From Nitrospirota bacterium (GTDB lineage Bacteria; Nitrospirota; UBA9217), in NCBI GenBank assembly GCA_963737155.1, contig CAVTRN010000001.1, positions 1,664,001 through 1,728,000 of the forward strand: a DNA stretch of 64,000 nt, given 5' to 3'. Of the stretch, positions 53,324 to 57,946 are shown piece by piece. The number at the start of each line of letters is the position of its first letter. The stretch's first letter is position 1. The notes beneath the pieces were generated by a model. That model ran no database searches, was not told the DNA's origin, and saw nothing but the letters and a program-made list of their open reading frames with translations. The translations under genes and the position numbers were made by a program.

Positions 53324-53520
53324 GGAACCCGCATTAAGAACTCCCGCGGCCTTGTTAACCATCATAATTCCTCTTTGTTTCTATTGTCCCCATGAAGGTT
53401 TATGTGCATTTTCCTCCCTCAATTGCGTCAGGATTCCCAAAAGCCTCAACCACTGATTGCTATGATTCATAACCGCTTGCAATATCCTGAAAACATAGCA
53501 TTTAATTACAAACCGCTATG

Positions 53521-55103
53521 GAGCTTGTTGCTCAAATGCCAGCGTAGCCGTTTATGATCGCCCATATGGGATAGTGCCAGACTGCAAATGGGGTATCTCT
53601 GCGAAGCACACGGCATGAATCAGCTGTCGTTTTCGTTCTTTATACTGCCATCTGGGCCGCAATCCCTTTGCCGCTTCGCCAAAGCTTCAAGAGATTGTGC
53701 GTCGTGCAGATGAGTTTCCATTCCTGGGAGCAGGCTTCAATCCCTCGGCGCATGTAGTGCCGGATGCCGCGATTGTCTTTAATCTGGCCAAAGATCGGTT
53801 CGACGGTCTGGCCTCGTTTCTTATAAAGCTCTCTGCCCCGCTTGGTCAGGAGCTTCCTCTCCATCCTCTGCCGGAGTGTCAGGCTTTTTGGTATCCTCCC
53901 TTGGGGCGGGGATGATGCGGCGGCCTCTTTACGTTGCTTCCAGTCTTTTTTGGTTGCGATAAGATGTTCGGGACCGTCGGGAGTGATGGCCGCAAAGTTC
54001 TTCTCACTTGCGTAGCCGGCATCGCTCAGAGATATTTCGATCTTCAGTTCTTTTTGCAGGGCGATCTCGTTTAAGCTCTCCTGGGCCTTCTGGATCATGG
54101 GATGCAGCTGGTTGATGTCGTTTTCCTGGTTCGTGACCTCGGCGGCGATGATGATCTGCTCCTTGGTGACCACGGCCTGGCTGTTGTAGCCCTGAACATA
54201 TCCGCTTCGGGTTTTCATGATCCTGCTGTCCGGATCAGTCATATTGGCCTTCGCTTCCGACGATGGCGTCGGATCAGGCTCCTGAGGTTTGCGGCCCCGT
54301 TTCTTGTTGCCGGTTTCAGCCTCTTGGGCCTGTCGTTCTTCGATCTTTGACTGTTGCTCGGCTGCTGCCTCTGCAGCCTGTTCTTCCAACCGCTTCTTGC
54401 ACGCGGCAAGGCGGGCTCTGCGGCTGGTCCGGTCGGCAAGTTCATCAGGAAGTTCATCGCCGCGTTTGTTTTGGCCGTACTGCCGGTCTTCCTCGGTGTC
54501 CTTGGCCTCCGCTTCATCGAGCATCCTCTTCACTTCCTGCTCGATATGTTCGTACGTGCGGTTGGCTTCCAGGGCTGCGTTAACCTTTATCTTGCTCCTG
54601 TCAAGGGCCACGATGCCGACTTTGACGAGCCCGGCTTCCTTGCAGAGCTTGAGCATCTGTTTGAACAGCCCCTCCAGTGCCTGGCCGTTGTCCTTCCGAA
54701 ATCGGCTGATGGTGCAGTGGTCCGGAACTTGGTTGGCGGCAATTACCTTGAATCCGATGTCCCGTTCGCAAAGCTTCTCGATCTCACGGGATGATCGGAT
54801 ACCGAGGCTGTAGGCATATAACAGCAGGAAGACCATCATTGACGGCTCAAAAGCTGCCTGGCCTTTTCCGTCCTGGCGGTATTTTCGGTAGAATGCCGTA
54901 AGATCCATTTCTGCCACGACGTCAAGGACCATCCAAACAAGGTCCTTGGATGGCAGCCACTCCTGCAAGGTGGGCGGCATGAGATATACTTGATCTCGGT
55001 TACAGTCTTTGAAATTGTAGGCCATCCAGCGTCTCCTTATATGCGTGATGACCAATACTATACTATTCGTATATTAATGTCAAATGATTTATGCAACAGG
55101 CTC
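53521..55103 (-). mobile_element. IS1182-family insertion sequence, copy 2 (1583 bp, inverted)
   Basis: Same IRs as copy 1; 4-bp TSD TATG at 53517-53520 and 55104-55107. Confidence 0.95.
53640..55025 (-). CDS. IS1182-family transposase
   Basis: Near-identical to 5555-6940, with a few substitutions such as ALDRSKIKVN. Confidence 0.95.
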   Translation of the reverse strand: MAYNFKDCNRDQVYLMPPTLQEWLPSKDLVWMVLDVVAEMDLTAFYRKYRQDGKGQAAFEPSMMVFLLLYAYSLGIRSSREIEKLCERDIGFKVIAANQVPDHCTISRFRKDNGQALEGLFKQMLKLCKEAGLVKVGIVALDRSKIKVNAALEANRTYEHIEQEVKRMLDEAEAKDTEEDRQYGQNKRGDELPDELADRTSRRARLAACKKRLEEQAAEAAAEQQSKIEERQAQEAETGNKKRGRKPQEPDPTPSSEAKANMTDPDSRIMKTRSGYVQGYNSQAVVTKEQIIIAAEVTNQENDINQLHPMIQKAQESLNEIALQKELKIEISLSDAGYASEKNFAAITPDGPEHLIATKKDWKQRKEAAASSPPQGRIPKSLTLRQRMERKLLTKRGRELYKKRGQTVEPIFGQIKDNRGIRHYMRRGIEACSQEWKLICTTHNLLKLWRSGKGIAAQMAV

Positions 55104-55330
55104 TATGATGGTGCTCAAATAACGCTACTGCTGGTTAATGTAGTGGATTATCTCCCTGATTCTCCCAAATTCAGTTGTTTGGTTATCGGGATCGTTCACG
55201 GCACCTTTTCAAGTAAACTACTATTAGACATAATGGTTGACAGTTAAAGAAAAGTGACCTGCCCCTTGCAACGTGGGTTATAATTGAGAACCCGTTCTCA
55301 AATACAGAGCCACAACCAAGGAGGCAGGTC

Positions 55331-56440
55331 ATGAAACATTTTATCACATTCGTCGGACTTGATGTACACAAAGATACCATTGATGTTGCGCTAGCCGAAT
55401 CAGGTGACGACAAGGAAGTCCGCCATTACGGAAAAATCGACGGAGACCTTGCGGCATTAGATAAAGCCATCAGGAAGCTCCTGAGTAAAGGCGCGAACCT
55501 TCACTTTGTCTATGAAGCCGGTCCCTGCGGCTATGATATTTATCGTCATCTGACAAAGCAGGGATTTTCGTGCGTCGTGGTAGCCCCCTCCCTGATACCG
55601 AAAAAGAGCGGAGATCGGGTCAAGACTGATCGACGTGATGCAATGAGCCTTGCCCGTTTGTACCGTTCCGGAGAACTGACAGCAGTTTATGTTCCCCGCG
55701 AGGACGACGAGGCCGTGAGGGATTTAAGCCGTGCGCGAGAGGATGCCGTCAACGCATCACGCGTCGCCCGTCAGCGGCTCGCGGCTATGCTTCTGCGGTT
55801 GGGGTACCGGTACAGCAAAACGCTGTGGAGCACAGCCCATTTTAACTGGCTGTCCACGATCAAGATGCCGCATCCGGCGCAGCAGATCGCGTTTCAAGAA
55901 TATATCCATGCTATCAGGGAATGCAGCGATCGGGTGAACCGCCTGACTGACCAGATACAAAAACTGATTCCGGACTGGAGGCTGGCGCCGGTGGTCAAGG
56001 CCCTGCAATCGCTTCGAGGGGTGTCACTCATGGTCGCCACAACCACGGTAGCCGAGATCGGCGACTTGAGTCGCTTTGCAAATCCGCGCCAGCTTATGGC
56101 ATATCTGGGGTTAGTGCCGTCCGAGCAATCCAGCGGGAAGAAGGAAAAGCGAGGCGGCATCACTAAAACCGGTAATGGGCACGTCAGGCGCGCCCTTGTG
56201 GAGGCAGCGCAAGCATATCATCACCAAGCGCGGGTTAGCAGGATACTGCTTGCACGGCAAGAAGACCTGCCAGATAGCATCCGCAAGATCTCTTGGAAAG
56301 CCCAGGTGAGGCTGTGCGGACGCTTCCGTAAACTGACCGGCCGAGGGAAAACCAGGAACAAGGTCGTGACCGCGATCGCCCGGGAGCTATCCGCCTTCAT
56401 GTGGGCTATTGCGAAGGAAGTGCCGATCCAGTACGCATAA
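55331..56440 (+). CDS. IS110/IS1111 DEDD recombinase, intact
   Basis: VGLDVHKD, YEAGP, KTDRRDA, GLVPSEQSSG (catalytic Ser), GGITKTGN, AIARELS. Confidence 0.96.
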   Translation: MKHFITFVGLDVHKDTIDVALAESGDDKEVRHYGKIDGDLAALDKAIRKLLSKGANLHFVYEAGPCGYDIYRHLTKQGFSCVVVAPSLIPKKSGDRVKTDRRDAMSLARLYRSGELTAVYVPREDDEAVRDLSRAREDAVNASRVARQRLAAMLLRLGYRYSKTLWSTAHFNWLSTIKMPHPAQQIAFQEYIHAIRECSDRVNRLTDQIQKLIPDWRLAPVVKALQSLRGVSLMVATTTVAEIGDLSRFANPRQLMAYLGLVPSEQSSGKKEKRGGITKTGNGHVRRALVEAAQAYHHQARVSRILLARQEDLPDSIRKISWKAQVRLCGRFRKLTGRGKTRNKVVTAIARELSAFMWAIAKEVPIQYA

Positions 56441-56500
56441 GCATGTTATCAAAGAGCTGAAGACCATAAAGGAGACCATAGACAGCAACTACAAAAAAAT

Positions 56501-56694
56501 ATCCAAGGCAGAAGCAGGGACGCGGTCGCGTTTAAGGGAGAACCCTCGAACCTACTATGGAATAAGGCAATGCCGAACTTCCGCTACTAGACCGAGGAAG
56601 CTCCCCGGCGAAAACAAGTCATGCGGTCAAACCCGCGCATATCAGAGTGATCAAACGTCGAACAACAGGCCCCGTCTCTGGTTGTGCCTTGGAT
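56501..56694 (+). ncRNA. Predicted seekRNA/bridge RNA of the IS1111-type element
   Basis: Closing stem ATCCAAGGCA/TGCCTTGGAT; internal-loop guides ACCTACTA and CTACTAG match the target; CATATCAGA matches the donor junction. Confidence 0.75.
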
Positions 56695-56962
56695 CAATAA
56701 TGAATACGTGAACCTTTAAAACAAGGGACAGGGAAACTATTTTCTCCTTGACAACTGTCAACCATATCAGTAGGTGGCAGTAAGAATTGCGCTGTCGACA
56801 GGGGTCATGACCTCTTTTGCAATTCATCGATGCTTGGGGAATCCTGTAAGGACCGCAATAAATTACTTAACTGTTTTTAAATCGTGGCTTTTTGCCATGG
56901 TGCTCAGACCGTTCCGGAGAACAAAGCGGCTTCAACACGAGGGACTCTGATGGCCAGTAGTA

Positions 56963-57946
56963 TTATGTGCTATTTTCAAAAAAAACGTTGGCCAGTTCTC
57001 TTGCTTCAGCCACACTCTTGCTGGTCTGGACTTTTGATGCCAGGTGGTGCCCGAATTTATAGTTTTGGGCAAAAAAATGGGTGTATTCCTTAAGTCTGCC
57101 AAGCCGATACTCAGGCCGGAAAAGCTCACTTAAGAGATCGACATAGTTGCCATAAACCGTGGGTAAAGACACCGTCGGCTGCGTAATTTTGCAGCCTAGG
57201 AGATCTCGTGCGATTTCGGCAAACAGCCAGGGTTTAATTGCTGCGCCGCGGCCGAGCATCAGTCCCTCAGCGCCAGAGACGCGCAGACAATTTTTCGCAT
57301 CCTCGACAGAGAATATTCCGCCATTAGCGATAACGGGAATTTTGAGCCATTCTTTTACTTTGGCAATACACTCCCACCGCGGCCTTCTGGCAAATGACTC
57401 ATTTTTAAGCCGGGCGTGAATTGAGAGCATATCAATGCCTTCGTCCTCAAGCATGGTGCAGAAGGTTTTTAATTTTTCTTCGTTCAGTTCGACGCCGATT
57501 CGGATTTTTGCCGTAAGGGGCAATGGTGTAAGTTTTCTTGCCTCAGCTACCAGGCAACGGACATGCTGCGGCTGTTCCATCAGTCTGATGCCTGCGCCGA
57601 TCTTGCCGACAGCGGGGGCCGGGCAGCCCATATTCAAGTCAATCACATCGGCTTTGAGTTTATGGAGAGCCTCTATGGCCGGGGCCATTTCCTGAGTTGT
57701 GGAAATCAAGAGCTGATAGGAAAGCGGTTTTTCTGAACTAGTCCTGATCAGGAACGGGGATACTCGAGCGCTTTCCGTGGGCAACCTTTTTGCCGAAAGC
57801 ATTTCCGTAGACAAAAGGCCGATTCCGCCAAAGCCGATAACAATCTGCCGAAGCGCGCTGTGGGTAAGGCCCGCCATGGGTGCCATAAGCAGGGGCGGAT
57901 TGATCTGAAGATTCCGAACGTGAATTTGTTGCAGTAATGTTTGCAT
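56963..57946 (-). CDS. tRNA-dihydrouridine synthase family protein
   Basis: MAPMAGLT, IDLNMGCPA, TAKIRIG, IHAR, IANGGI, LMLGRG. Confidence 0.93.
   Translation of the reverse strand: MQTLLQQIHVRNLQINPPLLMAPMAGLTHSALRQIVIGFGGIGLLSTEMLSAKRLPTESARVSPFLIRTSSEKPLSYQLLISTTQEMAPAIEALHKLKADVIDLNMGCPAPAVGKIGAGIRLMEQPQHVRCLVAEARKLTPLPLTAKIRIGVELNEEKLKTFCTMLEDEGIDMLSIHARLKNESFARRPRWECIAKVKEWLKIPVIANGGIFSVEDAKNCLRVSGAEGLMLGRGAAIKPWLFAEIARDLLGCKITQPTVSLPTVYGNYVDLLSELFRPEYRLGRLKEYTHFFAQNYKFGHHLASKVQTSKSVAEARELANVFFENST

What the first reader, a model, noticed from the sequence alone, without database searches (positions are those of the whole stretch)
55215..56780. Intact IS1111-type RNA-guided recombinase whose guides can be read directly from the sequence
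Removing the element at the shared AG core restores the target ACTACTATT-AG-TAGGTGG. The downstream non-coding region folds as GGGAG..CCTCG[AACCTACTAT]GGAA..TTCC[GCTACTAGAC]CGAGG..CTCCC. Its internal loop holds ACCTACTA (56550-56557), the exact reverse complement of the target's TAGTAGGT, and CTACTAG (56584-56590), matching the left target CTATTAG with one mismatch. CATATCAGA (56638-56646) matches the predicted circle junction CATATC-AG-ACATA. Circularisation places the 13-bp IRs 10 nt apart and builds TTGACA-18-CATAAT. Bridge/seekRNA-guided recombination by IS110/IS1111 is established. This appears to be a complete, reprogrammable member with a near-palindromic programmed target CTACTAGTAGGT (inference).
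Basis: partly seen in the sequence, partly recalled or inferred. Interest (0 to 1): 0.85.

Follow-up and report, generated by a model that had tools for sequence, protein, structure and literature searches.

The report
Intact IS1111-family RNA-guided insertion sequence
This is a complete 1.5-kb jumping gene of the known IS1111 family, sitting inside another jumping gene, and its own small RNA spells out the DNA site where it landed; it is a good new example of a mechanism described in 2024, not a new kind of system.

Summary
Window 55226-56768 is a 1543-bp IS1111-family element. It has perfect 13-bp subterminal inverted repeats, a 7-bp left and a 3-bp right extension, and an intact 369-aa DEDD/serine transposase. 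A 328-nt downstream non-coding region folds into a covariation-supported RNA. One internal loop of that RNA matches the flanks: 8 of 8 on the right side and 4 of 5 on the left. An 8-mer match alone is weak evidence (315 of 5000 shuffles). Comparison makes it strong. Across 63 unique insertions with 30 distinct guides, the 5' loop strand predicts the right flank (5.94/8 cognate against 3.41/8 non-cognate; 0 of 20000 permutations). A sister element in the same genome (71% aa identity, 6 copies) has different loops and correspondingly different flanks. The element lies about 85 bp inside the end of an IS1182-family element.

Two corrections. The "shared AG core" is not general: the left AG belongs to the IS and the right dinucleotide is part of the RNA-specified target. 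The donor-side reading (CATATCAGA) is plausible but cannot be tested by covariation.

Activity and reprogrammability remain inferred. Verdict: new member of a known kind, with modest interest.

The parts
55217..55225 (+). Left half of the target (ACTACTATT). Its last 5 nt, CTATT, are read by the 3' loop strand CTACT (4 of 5). The final T is also read by the 5' loop strand.
   Evidence: gapless continuity with paralogous repeat copies
55226..56768 (+). The IS1111-family element, 1543 bp (AGACATA...CCATATC). Because AG flanks both sides, 55228-56770 is formally equivalent. Family comparison favours 55226-56768.
55226..55232 (+). 7-bp left terminal extension AGACATA. AGACA is present in 68 of the 69 relatives delimited (L031 starts CGACA).
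   Evidence: the 7-bp/3-bp rule is stated in PMC11187229
55233..55245 (+). Left subterminal inverted repeat ATGGTTGACAGTT.
   Evidence: pair I15 (13 nt, 100% complementary)
55229..55234 (+). CATAAT, the -10 half of the promoter that forms only when the ends are joined. In the integrated state it also lies 17 nt after a flank-derived TTTTCA.
55331..56440 (+). Transposase gene, 369 aa, with an AAGGAGG ribosome-binding site upstream. It is an intact DEDD/RuvC-like plus Tnp-domain protein. D11, E62, D100, D103 and S268 align with the catalytic residues of IS621. The GL-P----SG motif is at 260-269.
56501..56694 (+). Structured non-coding RNA domain (long seekRNA / bridge-like RNA). A long outer stem (56501-25 with 56670-94) encloses two arms.
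   Evidence: (pair I2)
56536..56605 (+). Target-binding arm: GGGAG..CCTCG [5' loop strand] GGAA-hairpin-TTCC [3' loop strand] CGAGG..CTCCC.
56549..56558 (+). 5' loop strand AACCTACTAT, the right-target guide. 56550-57 is the exact reverse complement of T(55225) + AGTAGGT(56769-75), so it would pair with the top strand.
56583..56592 (+). 3' loop strand GCTACTAGAC, the left-target guide. CTACT is read against CTATT, and the strand then continues as AGAC, which is the IS's own first bases. It has the same sense as the top strand, so it would pair with the bottom strand.
56606..56660 (+). Second arm (CGGCG/CGTCG stem) with the conserved GCGG..CCGC hairpin. It is the candidate donor-binding arm.
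56638..56646 (+). CATATCAGA, identical to the predicted circle junction CATATC|AGA. ATATCAG is kept in 62 of 69 relatives.
56748..56753 (+). TTGACA, the -35 half of the circle-junction promoter. TTGACN is present in 69 of 69 relatives.
56753..56765 (+). Right subterminal inverted repeat AACTGTCAACCAT.
   Evidence: pair I15
56766..56768 (+). 3-bp right terminal extension ATC.
56769..56777 (+). Right half of the target (AGTAGGTGG). The guide predicts AGTAGGTT (7 of 8).
53429..56846 (-). Host element: an IS1182-family IS (transposase 53640-55055 on the minus strand, 471 aa). The candidate terminal inverted repeat arms are 53429-41 and 56834-46. The IS1111-type element sits between its transposase start and its end.
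   Evidence: pair I17

Best explanation

Mechanism, inferred from experimentally characterised family members. The element excises as a circle. Joining its ends builds a TTGACA-18-CATAAT promoter that drives the transposase and the non-coding region behind it. That region folds into a two-armed RNA that binds the DEDD/serine recombinase.

Shown here by sequence comparison. In the first arm, the 5' strand of an internal loop pairs with the top strand of the target, to the right of the insertion point (T|AGTAGGT). The 3' strand pairs with the bottom strand to the left of it (CTAyT|) and runs on into the IS's own first bases (AGA). The loop therefore specifies the site CTACT|AGTAGGTT, which contains the 10-bp palindrome CTACTAGTAG.

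The copy in the window landed at a one-mismatch version of that site, inside the leader of an IS1182-family element.

The second arm carries ATATCAG, which matches the joined ends, and is the likely donor-recognition part.
For: PROTEIN
- The transposase matches PF01548 and PF02371 and NF033542 at 265 bits against a cut-off of 140.
- D11, E62, D100, D103 and S268 align with the IS621 catalytic residues, and the GL-P----SG motif is present.

ENDS
- The inverted repeats are 13 bp and perfect.
- The extensions are 7 bp and 3 bp, and the non-coding region lies downstream, as PMC11187229 defines the family.

BOUNDARIES
- The restored site aligns without a gap to paralogous uninterrupted copies.
- Contigs of related copies in other metagenomes stop matching at 55225 and at 56775. 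At 55225 there are 3 records with 2 different flanks, ending ..CT. At 56775 there is 1 record, just after AGTAGGT.
- L031 (94% aa identity, same guides) is also followed by AGTAGGTG in an unrelated context.

RNA STRUCTURE (40 homologues)
- 43 pairs are predicted. 94.6% of cells are paired, against 38-45% when partners are slid.
- 327 cells carry compensatory changes, against 44-73 when slid. 0 of 500 shuffles reach the observed score.

GUIDES (63 unique insertions, 30 distinct right guides)
- Right side: cognate match 5.94/8 against non-cognate 3.41/8, with 0 of 20000 permutations as high.
- Left side, last 5 nt: 2.95/5 against 2.00/5, with 0 of 20000.
- L032, at 90% aa identity, has a different guide (AGGTTGGC) and the flank aggttggg.
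- The 6-copy sister element in the same genome (71% aa identity) has loops TCCAAACTAT and GTTAATAGAG. All 6 copies lie at ..AT|AGTTT.
- The order of strands (top-strand match 5', bottom-strand match 3', overlapping) is the one published for IS1111 seekRNAs. The strand assignment equals the left and right target guides of IS621.
- Only 18 of 9.67 million genome positions fit both guides as well as the occupied site.

PROMOTER
- TTGACN is in the right end of 69 of 69 relatives.
Against: - Nothing shows that this copy is active. It is single-copy in the genome although 18 equal or better sites are free, 3 of them with 8/8 on the right side.
- No circle junction or empty-site joint was seen in the 4 runs laid. 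All four are assembled contigs.
- The left guide has a true mismatch at position -2 (C in the RNA, T in the site).
- The 8-mer match alone is not significant (315 of 5000 shuffles).
- Because the programmed site is palindromic, the two guide strands can pair with each other in the MFE fold. This might hinder them.
- L031's left flank does not fit the guide at all (0/8), and its element begins CG rather than AG.
- Donor side: ATATCAG and the end it would read are both invariant, so there is no covariation test. Three relatives have ATCTCAG although their end is still ATATC. The opposite donor strand matches only GAC in this element.
- The permutation tests ignore phylogenetic relatedness among elements.
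- The transposase is 369 aa, a little above the 330-350 aa range quoted for IS1111-family proteins.
- Its relationship to the IS1111 protein itself was not tested.
Confidence: 0.9

Rival explanations
1. The element is a correctly read IS1111-family member, but this copy is a silent relic that no longer moves. Possible reasons are a weak or absent promoter in the integrated state, self-pairing guides, or an unseen defect.
For: It is single-copy despite 18 free sites of equal or better fit. The same genome holds decayed relatives: an internally deleted copy and solo end and RNA fragments. The guide strands can pair with each other.
Against: The ORF is intact with all five catalytic residues. The inverted repeats are perfect. 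Every column that is invariant among the 40 RNAs is kept here. Copies 95-99% alike lie in other flanks in other metagenomes, and L031 at 94% aa identity lies in another genome.
Confidence: 0.25
2. The loop/flank matches are chance, or a by-product. The site would be chosen by the protein recognising a DNA hairpin, since the site is a palindrome inside a conserved stem-loop of the IS1182 leader. The non-coding region would be only a structured 3' UTR.
For: The 8-mer alone occurs in 6.3% of shuffles. The target is palindromic. IS1111 members are known for landing in foldable sites such as REP and attC.
Against: The guides track the flanks across 30 distinct guide types (0 of 20000 permutations), including linear, non-palindromic sites. 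Two elements with 90% identical proteins have different guides and different flanks. Experiments on ISEc11 show that the non-coding region is required and can be retargeted.
Confidence: 0.04
3. It works as an IS621-type bridge system in the strict sense: two independently programmable loops and a core dinucleotide (AG) shared by donor and target, where the strands are exchanged.
For: AG is on both sides in this copy. There is a second arm with ATATCAG matching the joined ends. The strand logic of the target loop equals that of IS621.
Against: In 36 of 69 relatives the right dinucleotide is AA or GG while the left is always AG. 0 of 13 uninterrupted sites in G002 read AG; they read CT|AA. The non-coding region is downstream and the order of the strands is reversed. 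The right-donor match is only 3 nt here.
Confidence: 0.15

Closest known systems
ISEc11 / ISXne4 (IS1111 family; Siddiquee et al. 2024, PMC11187229, sections 7-10 read)
   Same: Both have subterminal inverted repeats, a 7-bp left extension, a downstream non-coding region giving a seekRNA, a top-strand match 5' of an overlapping bottom-strand match, and a promoter built at the circle junction. ISEc11 and ISXne4 are a natural pair of about 72% identical transposases with swapped guides and different targets. The window element and its 6-copy sister (71% identity) mirror that pair within one genome.
   Different: The guides and the target are different. The protein is 369 aa rather than 339 aa. 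No experiment has been done here. I had no ISEc11 sequence to align, so the degree of relatedness is unknown.
IS1111-attC group, e.g. ISKpn4 and ISPst6 (named in PMC11187229; the defining paper PMC2447020 is not held)
   Same: Relatives at 57-59% aa identity share this element's RNA scaffold and ends. They sit in arrays of attC-like repeats at ..CCT|AACGTT.. (G002: 3 occupied and 13 uninterrupted sites).
   Different: The window element targets a site in another IS, not an attC. That the G002 repeats are attC sites rests on my recollection of the attC consensus and on their spacing, not on an integrase search.
IS621 bridge RNA system (IS110 group; PMC11208160 passages, PMC11208158 passages)
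   Same: Both have a DEDD plus serine recombinase. An internal RNA loop has one strand pairing with the bottom strand of the left target and the other with the top strand of the right target. A second RNA element matches the joined ends.
   Different: Here the RNA is downstream rather than upstream, the strand order is reversed and the inverted repeats are long. There is no shared core dinucleotide at family level. The donor-side nucleotides sit in a second arm of a multi-branch fold, as Durrant et al. noted for many IS1111 orthologues. Sequence similarity to IS621 is remote (E = 2.7e-8, C-terminal domain).
IS4321 / IS5075 (IS1111 family; known to me from the title cited, the rest recalled)
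   Same: These are IS1111-family elements that land in the ends of other transposons. Here the landing site is about 85 bp inside the end of an IS1182-family element.
   Different: Their target is the 38-bp terminal repeat of Tn21-type transposons. The probable matches in plasmids are only about 30% identical over part of the protein, and the names of those hits were not shown.
ISEc45 and ISSso6 (PGAP names on plasmid hits)
   Same: These are the nearest named transposases, at 47.8% and 47.1% identity over 96-98% of the length. The ISSso6 copy has 14-bp subterminal inverted repeats and the same GCGGT..CCGC-GAATATCAG motif downstream.
   Different: They are distant in sequence, and I did not work out their guides and targets.

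Membership tests
IS1111 family (IS110 superfamily) | Transposase with an N-terminal DEDD/RuvC-like domain and a C-terminal PF02371 domain | tested here: met
   PF01548 at 6.3e-18 and PF02371 at 8.8e-24. NF033542 at 265 bits against a cut-off of 140.
IS1111 family (IS110 superfamily) | Catalytic D-E-D-D and the serine of the GL-P----S(T)G motif | tested here: met
   D11, E62, D100, D103 and S268 align with the corresponding IS621 residues. GLVPSEQSSG is at 260-269. The motif wording is from PMC11187229 section 6.
IS1111 family (IS110 superfamily) | Subterminal inverted repeats, usually 11-13 bp, perfect or nearly so | tested here: met
   13 bp, 100% complementary, at 55233-45 and 56753-65 (pair I15).
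IS1111 family (IS110 superfamily) | Asymmetric terminal extensions beyond the repeats: 7 bp on the left and 3 bp on the right | tested here: met
   AGACATA and ATC, with ends at 55226 and 56768. The ends are supported. The rule is stated in PMC11187229.
IS1111 family (IS110 superfamily) | The long non-coding region lies downstream of the transposase gene | tested here: met
   There are 328 nt between the stop codon (56440) and the right end (56768), but only 105 nt upstream of the start codon.
IS1111 family (IS110 superfamily) | No target-site duplication | tested here: inconclusive
   In the window AG lies on both sides, so a 2-bp duplication cannot be excluded from this copy alone. In relatives it can be. 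Uninterrupted sites read CT|AACG and occupied ones read CT[AGACA..ATATC]AACG.
IS1111 family (IS110 superfamily) | The seekRNA carries a top-strand match 5' of a bottom-strand match, and the two overlap in the target | tested here: met
   56550-57 is complementary to the top strand and 56584-90 has the same sense as the top strand. They overlap at TAG.
IS1111 family (IS110 superfamily) | A circular intermediate with abutted ends creates a promoter | not testable with these tools
   At sequence level TTGACA-18-CATAAT would form, and TTGACN is in 69 of 69 relatives. No circle junction was seen in the contigs laid.
IS1111 family (IS110 superfamily) | Transposase related over its full length to that of IS1111 itself | not tested
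   No IS1111 reference sequence was on hand. The nearest named proteins are ISEc45 and ISSso6 at 47-48% identity. Supplementary trees of PMC11187229 could not be seen.
IS1111 family (IS110 superfamily) | An RNA derived from the non-coding region binds the transposase and is required for movement | not testable with these tools
   No RNA run was listed for this sequence.
IS110-group bridge RNA system (IS621 type) | Guide RNA encoded upstream of the recombinase gene, in the left end | tested here: not met
   The structured RNA is at 56501-56694, downstream of the gene.
IS110-group bridge RNA system (IS621 type) | Core dinucleotide shared by donor and target | tested here: not met
   It is shared in this copy (AG/AG), but not in 36 of 69 relatives, and 0 of 13 empty sites in G002 read AG.
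IS110-group bridge RNA system (IS621 type) | A separate donor-binding loop with left and right donor guides | tested here: inconclusive
   A second arm holds ATATCAG, matching the right end plus AG. It is invariant, so no covariation test is possible. On the opposite strand the match is 3 nt (GAC) here but 7 nt (AGACAAG) in L063-L065.

The most novel reading that the evidence does not exclude
In this IS1111 sub-family, recombination may need no core dinucleotide common to donor and target.
- The IS always begins with its own AG, whereas the two bases to the right of the insertion point are dictated by the RNA (AG, AA or GG).
- The left-guide strand always runs on as AGA into the IS's own end.

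The same loop would then read the empty target for insertion, through its 5' strand, and the occupied left junction for excision or strand hand-over, through its 3' strand. If so, the IS1111 branch exchanges strands differently from IS621, and its guides could be aimed at sites without any fixed core. The window's element and its co-resident sister would be a ready natural pair for testing this.
Probability: 0.35. Interest if true: 0.5.

Novelty: new member of a known kind. Interest (0 to 1): 0.3.

Why it matters
RNA-guided recombinases of the IS110/IS1111 type are being developed as genome-writing tools, and most work rests on a few elements from enterobacteria. This window adds a complete IS1111-type element from an uncultured soil or sediment lineage; its nearest relatives are in Nitrospirota MAGs. 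Its guide code can be read with confidence for three reasons: a sister element in the same genome, a 90%-identical relative with other guides, and about 60 further relatives all follow the same register. The set gives a family-specific rule: 8 nt on the right, about 5 nt on the left, T at -1, and IS-borne AGA after the left guide. It also gives a natural guide-swap pair. For the biology of the genome, the element is one IS nested in and probably silencing another. None of this changes what is known about the mechanism.

Tried and rejected
- Rfam: no family matched 55000-57000 at E <= 1 apart from a chance lncRNA hit at 17.9 bits against a gathering score of 50. This RNA is therefore not in Rfam 15.
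- Expression: no RNA holder was listed among 22 runs, so nothing can be said about expression.
- Reads: the 4 runs laid are assembled contigs. No joint across the element (an empty site) and no circle junction was reported, and parts of the stretch had no cover. This is not evidence of absence.
- Circle versus integrated junction: I tried to show that the RNA's ATATCAG reads the circle junction rather than the integrated right junction. I used the 37 elements whose right-flank dinucleotide differs from the IS's first two bases. The two readings tie in 35 of them, so I dropped the argument.
- Right donor guide: I looked for a family-wide guide opposite ATATCAG. Only GAC or AGAC recurs. Longer matches occur only in the L063-L065, L076, L088, L093 and L049 lineages.
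- ISSso6 as ISEc11: I tested whether the named relative ISSso6 is the experimentally studied ISEc11 by looking for its published target GTGAAAATACTG in the flanks. It is not there.
- Third element: I checked a candidate third member of this lineage at C1:1293xxx. It is an internally deleted remnant without a long ORF.
- Rows dropped: 6 of 69 elements with flanks shorter than 8 nt (L043, L046, L057, L060, L075, L091) were left out of the permutation test. L044 and L061 are mis-registered by 1 nt in the fixed-offset table but were kept. 19 of the 80 loci gave no confident ends and were not used. The consensus fold used 40 of the 55 distinct RNA sequences. I left out the L063-type sequences with long hairpin insertions and some near-duplicates.
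- Supplements of PMC11187229 and PMC11208160 (trees, per-IS tables, folds) were not open. They may already list close relatives of this element.
PMC2447020 is not held.
Full report
WHAT IS THERE

The strings and coordinates in the finding are correct. The left side reads ...AAACTACTATT, then AG (55226-27), ACATA (55228-32) and ATGGTTGACAGTT (55233-45). The right side reads AACTGTCAACCAT (56753-65), ATC (56766-68) and AG (56769-70), followed by TAGGTGG. The two 13-nt stretches are a perfect inverted repeat (pair I15).

Between them lies one long ORF, 55331-56440, of 369 aa, preceded by AAGGAGG. It matches Pfam DEDD_Tnp_IS110 and Transposase_20. It also matches the NCBIfam model 'IS110 family RNA-guided transposase' at 265 bits against a cut-off of 140. 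In the HMMER alignments to the solved IS621 and ISCro4 recombinases, D11, E62, D100, D103 and S268 of this protein stand opposite their catalytic residues. The motif GLVPSEQSSG fits the GL-P----S(T)G form that Siddiquee et al. give for IS1111-type proteins (PMC11187229, section 6).

WHERE THE ELEMENT ENDS

The window's element is single-copy in its genome. However, the DNA on both sides belongs to a repeat with about 13 paralogous copies. In those copies the two flanks are contiguous. After 55226-56768 is removed, the window aligns to them without a gap: ACTACTATTAGTAGGTGG against ACTGCTGCTGGCAGGTGG.

Contigs from other metagenomes carry copies 90-99% alike. They stop matching exactly at 55225 (3 records with two different flanks, both ending in CT) and at 56775, just after AGTAGGT (1 record). 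These are contigs of other organisms laid at 90% likeness. They show other contexts of related copies, not this genome.

With ends at 55226 and 56768 the element is 1543 bp. It has a 7-bp left extension (AGACATA) and a 3-bp right extension (ATC) beyond the repeats. These are the lengths given as characteristic of the IS1111 family (PMC11187229, introduction).

THE HOST SITE

The flanking repeat is an IS1182-family element. Its transposase is at 53640-55055 on the minus strand and scores 302 bits on NF033551. Candidate terminal repeats are at 53429-41 and 56834-46 (pair I17). The IS1111-type element therefore sits between that transposase's start and the element's end, about 85 bp from the end.

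THE RNA

The 329-nt stretch downstream of the transposase gene folds more stably than all 100 shuffles (z = -4.2).

I collected 80 homologous loci from public genomes. They run from 94% aa identity in Nitrospirota MAGs down to 56% in Proteobacteria and Acidobacteriota. I delimited 69 elements, including the window's and the six copies of a sister element in the same genome.

An alignment of 40 of the 55 distinct RNA regions gives a consensus of 43 pairs. 28 of these pairs show compensatory changes. 94.6% of cells are paired, against 38-45% when partners are slid by 1-3 columns. There are 327 double-change cells against 44-73 when slid, and 0 of 500 column shuffles reach the observed score.

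The structure has a long outer stem (window 56501-25 with 56670-94) enclosing two arms:
- Arm 1 (56536-56605) has two conserved stems, an internal loop of 10 + 10 nt that is unpaired in the consensus, and a variable, covarying hairpin.
- Arm 2 (56606-56660) has a conserved hairpin flanked by single-stranded stretches, one of which is CATATCAGA.

Rfam 15 has no matching family.

THE GUIDES

In the window, loop positions 56550-57 are the exact reverse complement of T(55225) + AGTAGGT(56769-75). Positions 56584-88 (CTACT) stand against the left flank CTATT. On its own the 8-mer is weak: an equally long match turns up in 315 of 5000 dinucleotide shuffles of the non-coding region.

The comparison settles it. 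In a fixed register counted from the conserved CTCG, the reverse complement of the first 8 loop bases predicts the first 8 bases of the right flank. The cognate mean is 5.94/8 and the non-cognate mean is 3.41/8. This is over 63 unique insertions with 30 distinct guides, and 0 of 20000 guide-group permutations reach the cognate value. Leaving out the first two bases gives 4.05/6 against 2.03/6.

The last 5 bases before AGA in the 3' strand match the left flank at 2.95/5 against 2.00/5, again with 0 of 20000 permutations as high. These permutations do not correct for relatedness of the elements, so the numbers overstate independence. The individual cases nevertheless speak clearly:
- L031 (94% aa identity) has the same loops and is followed by AGTAGGTG in an unrelated context.
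- L032 (90% aa identity) has the guide AGGTTGGC and the flank aggttggg.
- The sister element (71% aa identity, six copies) has the loops TCCAAACTAT and GTTAATAGAG. All six copies lie at ..AT|AGTTT...

This is the same kind of natural re-direction that Siddiquee et al. describe for ISEc11 and ISXne4 (section 10).

The order also agrees with the literature. The strand complementary to the top strand lies 5' of the strand complementary to the bottom strand, and the two matches overlap in the target. That is the order published for IS1111 seekRNAs (section 9). The strand logic equals that of the left and right target guides of IS621 (PMC11208158).

Genome-wide, only 18 of 9,674,724 positions fit both guides as well as the occupied site.

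CORRECTION 1: THE 'AG CORE'

In this copy AG stands on both sides, which suggested a shared core. Across the family the left AG is nearly invariant (AGACA in 68 of 69 elements). The two bases to the right of the element are AA in 35 elements and GG in 1, and they follow the guide.

In the genome that holds L097 and L098 I found 16 copies of their target repeat, in arrays that look like integron attC sites. 3 are occupied. The 13 uninterrupted ones read ..CT AA CGTT.. in 10 cases, AA in 12 cases and AG in none.

So the left AG is part of the IS, and the right dinucleotide is part of the RNA-specified target. The element is inserted between T and A without duplication.

A consequence is that the 3' loop strand, which always continues as AGA after the flank match, reads the occupied left junction better than the empty site in those relatives. 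This fits the report that the seekRNA and matching flanks are also needed for excision (PMC11187229, sections 7 and 14). Whether it acts as a hand-over guide, like the handshake bases of IS621, is my inference.

CORRECTION 2: THE DONOR SIDE

CATATCAGA equals the predicted joined ends (CATATC|AGA). ATATCAG is kept in 62 of 69 relatives. But the right end ATATC and the left AG are equally constant, so covariation cannot test the pairing. Three relatives have ATCTCAG with an unchanged end. On the other side of the arm-2 hairpin, the reverse complement matches the left end over 7 nt (AGACAAG) in the L063-L065 lineage, but only over GAC in the window's lineage.

This agrees with Durrant et al.'s remark that in many IS1111 orthologues the potential donor-binding bases sit in a multi-loop (PMC11208160, passage). 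It remains a plausible assignment, not a shown one.

PROMOTER

Joining the ends gives TTGACA-18-CATAAT. TTGACN is in the right end of 69 of 69 relatives, and a CAnnAT hexamer follows at 17-18 nt in most. In the integrated state a weaker TTTTCA-17-CATAAT is formed with the flank.

IS THIS COPY ACTIVE?

This is not known.
- For: the ORF is intact, the repeats are perfect, all conserved RNA columns are kept, and near-identical copies lie in other contexts elsewhere.
- Against: it is single-copy although 18 sites of equal or better fit are free. The genome holds decayed relatives. The programmed site contains the perfect palindrome CTACTAGTAG, so the two guide strands can pair with each other in the MFE fold.

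No RNA run was listed, and the contigs laid showed neither a circle junction nor an empty site.

COMPARISON WITH WHAT IS KNOWN, AND VERDICT

Every defining feature of the IS1111 family that I could test is met. The one left untested is a tree against the IS1111 protein itself. The nearest named proteins are ISEc45 and ISSso6 at 47-48% identity.

It is not an IS621-type system in the strict sense: the RNA is downstream, the strand order is reversed, the repeats are long, and there is no family-wide shared core.

The mechanism, including programmability, was published in 2024. This is a new member of a known kind, with a clean, comparatively validated guide code and a natural guide-swap partner in the same genome.

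Noticed in passing
own genome: C2:171443-173194(+), C1:841439-843190(+), C2:232330-234081(+), C2:497935-499689(-), C2:924874-926625(-), C2:2320479-2322230(-): Six near-identical copies of a sister IS1111-type element, with 71% aa identity to the window's transposase. The ends are the same but the guide loops differ, and all six are inserted at ..AT|AGTTT... Their non-coding region carries about 250 extra nt between the stop codon and the RNA domain.
   Followed up: partly
window 53429-56846 (minus strand gene 53640-55055) and about 13 paralogous sites such as C2:2784668 and C1:1752783: The host IS1182-family element is about 80% like a multi-copy repeat in the same genome. Similarity to those copies stops at about 56850, whereas the copies stay identical to one another for at least 120 nt more. 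They may therefore be a longer or composite element.
   Followed up: partly
window 55218-55225 + 56769-56773, and the homologous stretch of the paralogous copies: The insertion site lies in a small potential hairpin of the IS1182 leader. The hairpin is kept through compensatory changes: CTACT-ATT-AGTAG in the window and CTGCT-GCT-GGCAG in the paralogues. IS1111-type elements are known for landing in foldable sites.
   Followed up: no
own genome C1:1292700-1294600; C2:337106-337252; C2:819623-819766; C1:252857-252956; C2:2474468-2474531: Decayed relatives of this lineage are present. One is an internally deleted copy of about 860 bp with recognisable ends and no long ORF. There are two solo left-end fragments, one solo fragment of the RNA's second arm, and one short internal fragment.
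   Followed up: partly
own genome, e.g. C2:145456-146448, C2:1916918-1918072, C2:1955141-1956295: Three further full-length matches to the IS110-family model belong to other lineages, two of them with an in-frame stop. There are about ten partial matches. In all, 21 places match NF033542.
   Followed up: no
G002:C8:2210-25212 and G002:C16:153699-161969 (loci L113-L128): There are arrays of a repeat of about 70 bp (GCCTAACGTTTGAGC...GGGTTAG), all in one orientation and 0.4-3 kb apart. They look like attC sites of a chromosomal integron. Three of the 16 are occupied by relatives of the window's element, inserted at CT|AA.
   Followed up: partly
L031:1395-1415: The closest relative (94% aa identity) begins CGACATA instead of AGACATA, and its left flank does not fit its left guide (0 of 8). 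This may reflect a rearrangement or an adjacent deletion at its left junction.
   Followed up: no
window 55206-55234: In the integrated state the flank supplies TTTTCA 17 nt upstream of the IS's CATAAT. This is a weak hybrid promoter-like site that could give basal transposase transcription (1 site found against 1.5 expected by chance).
   Followed up: no
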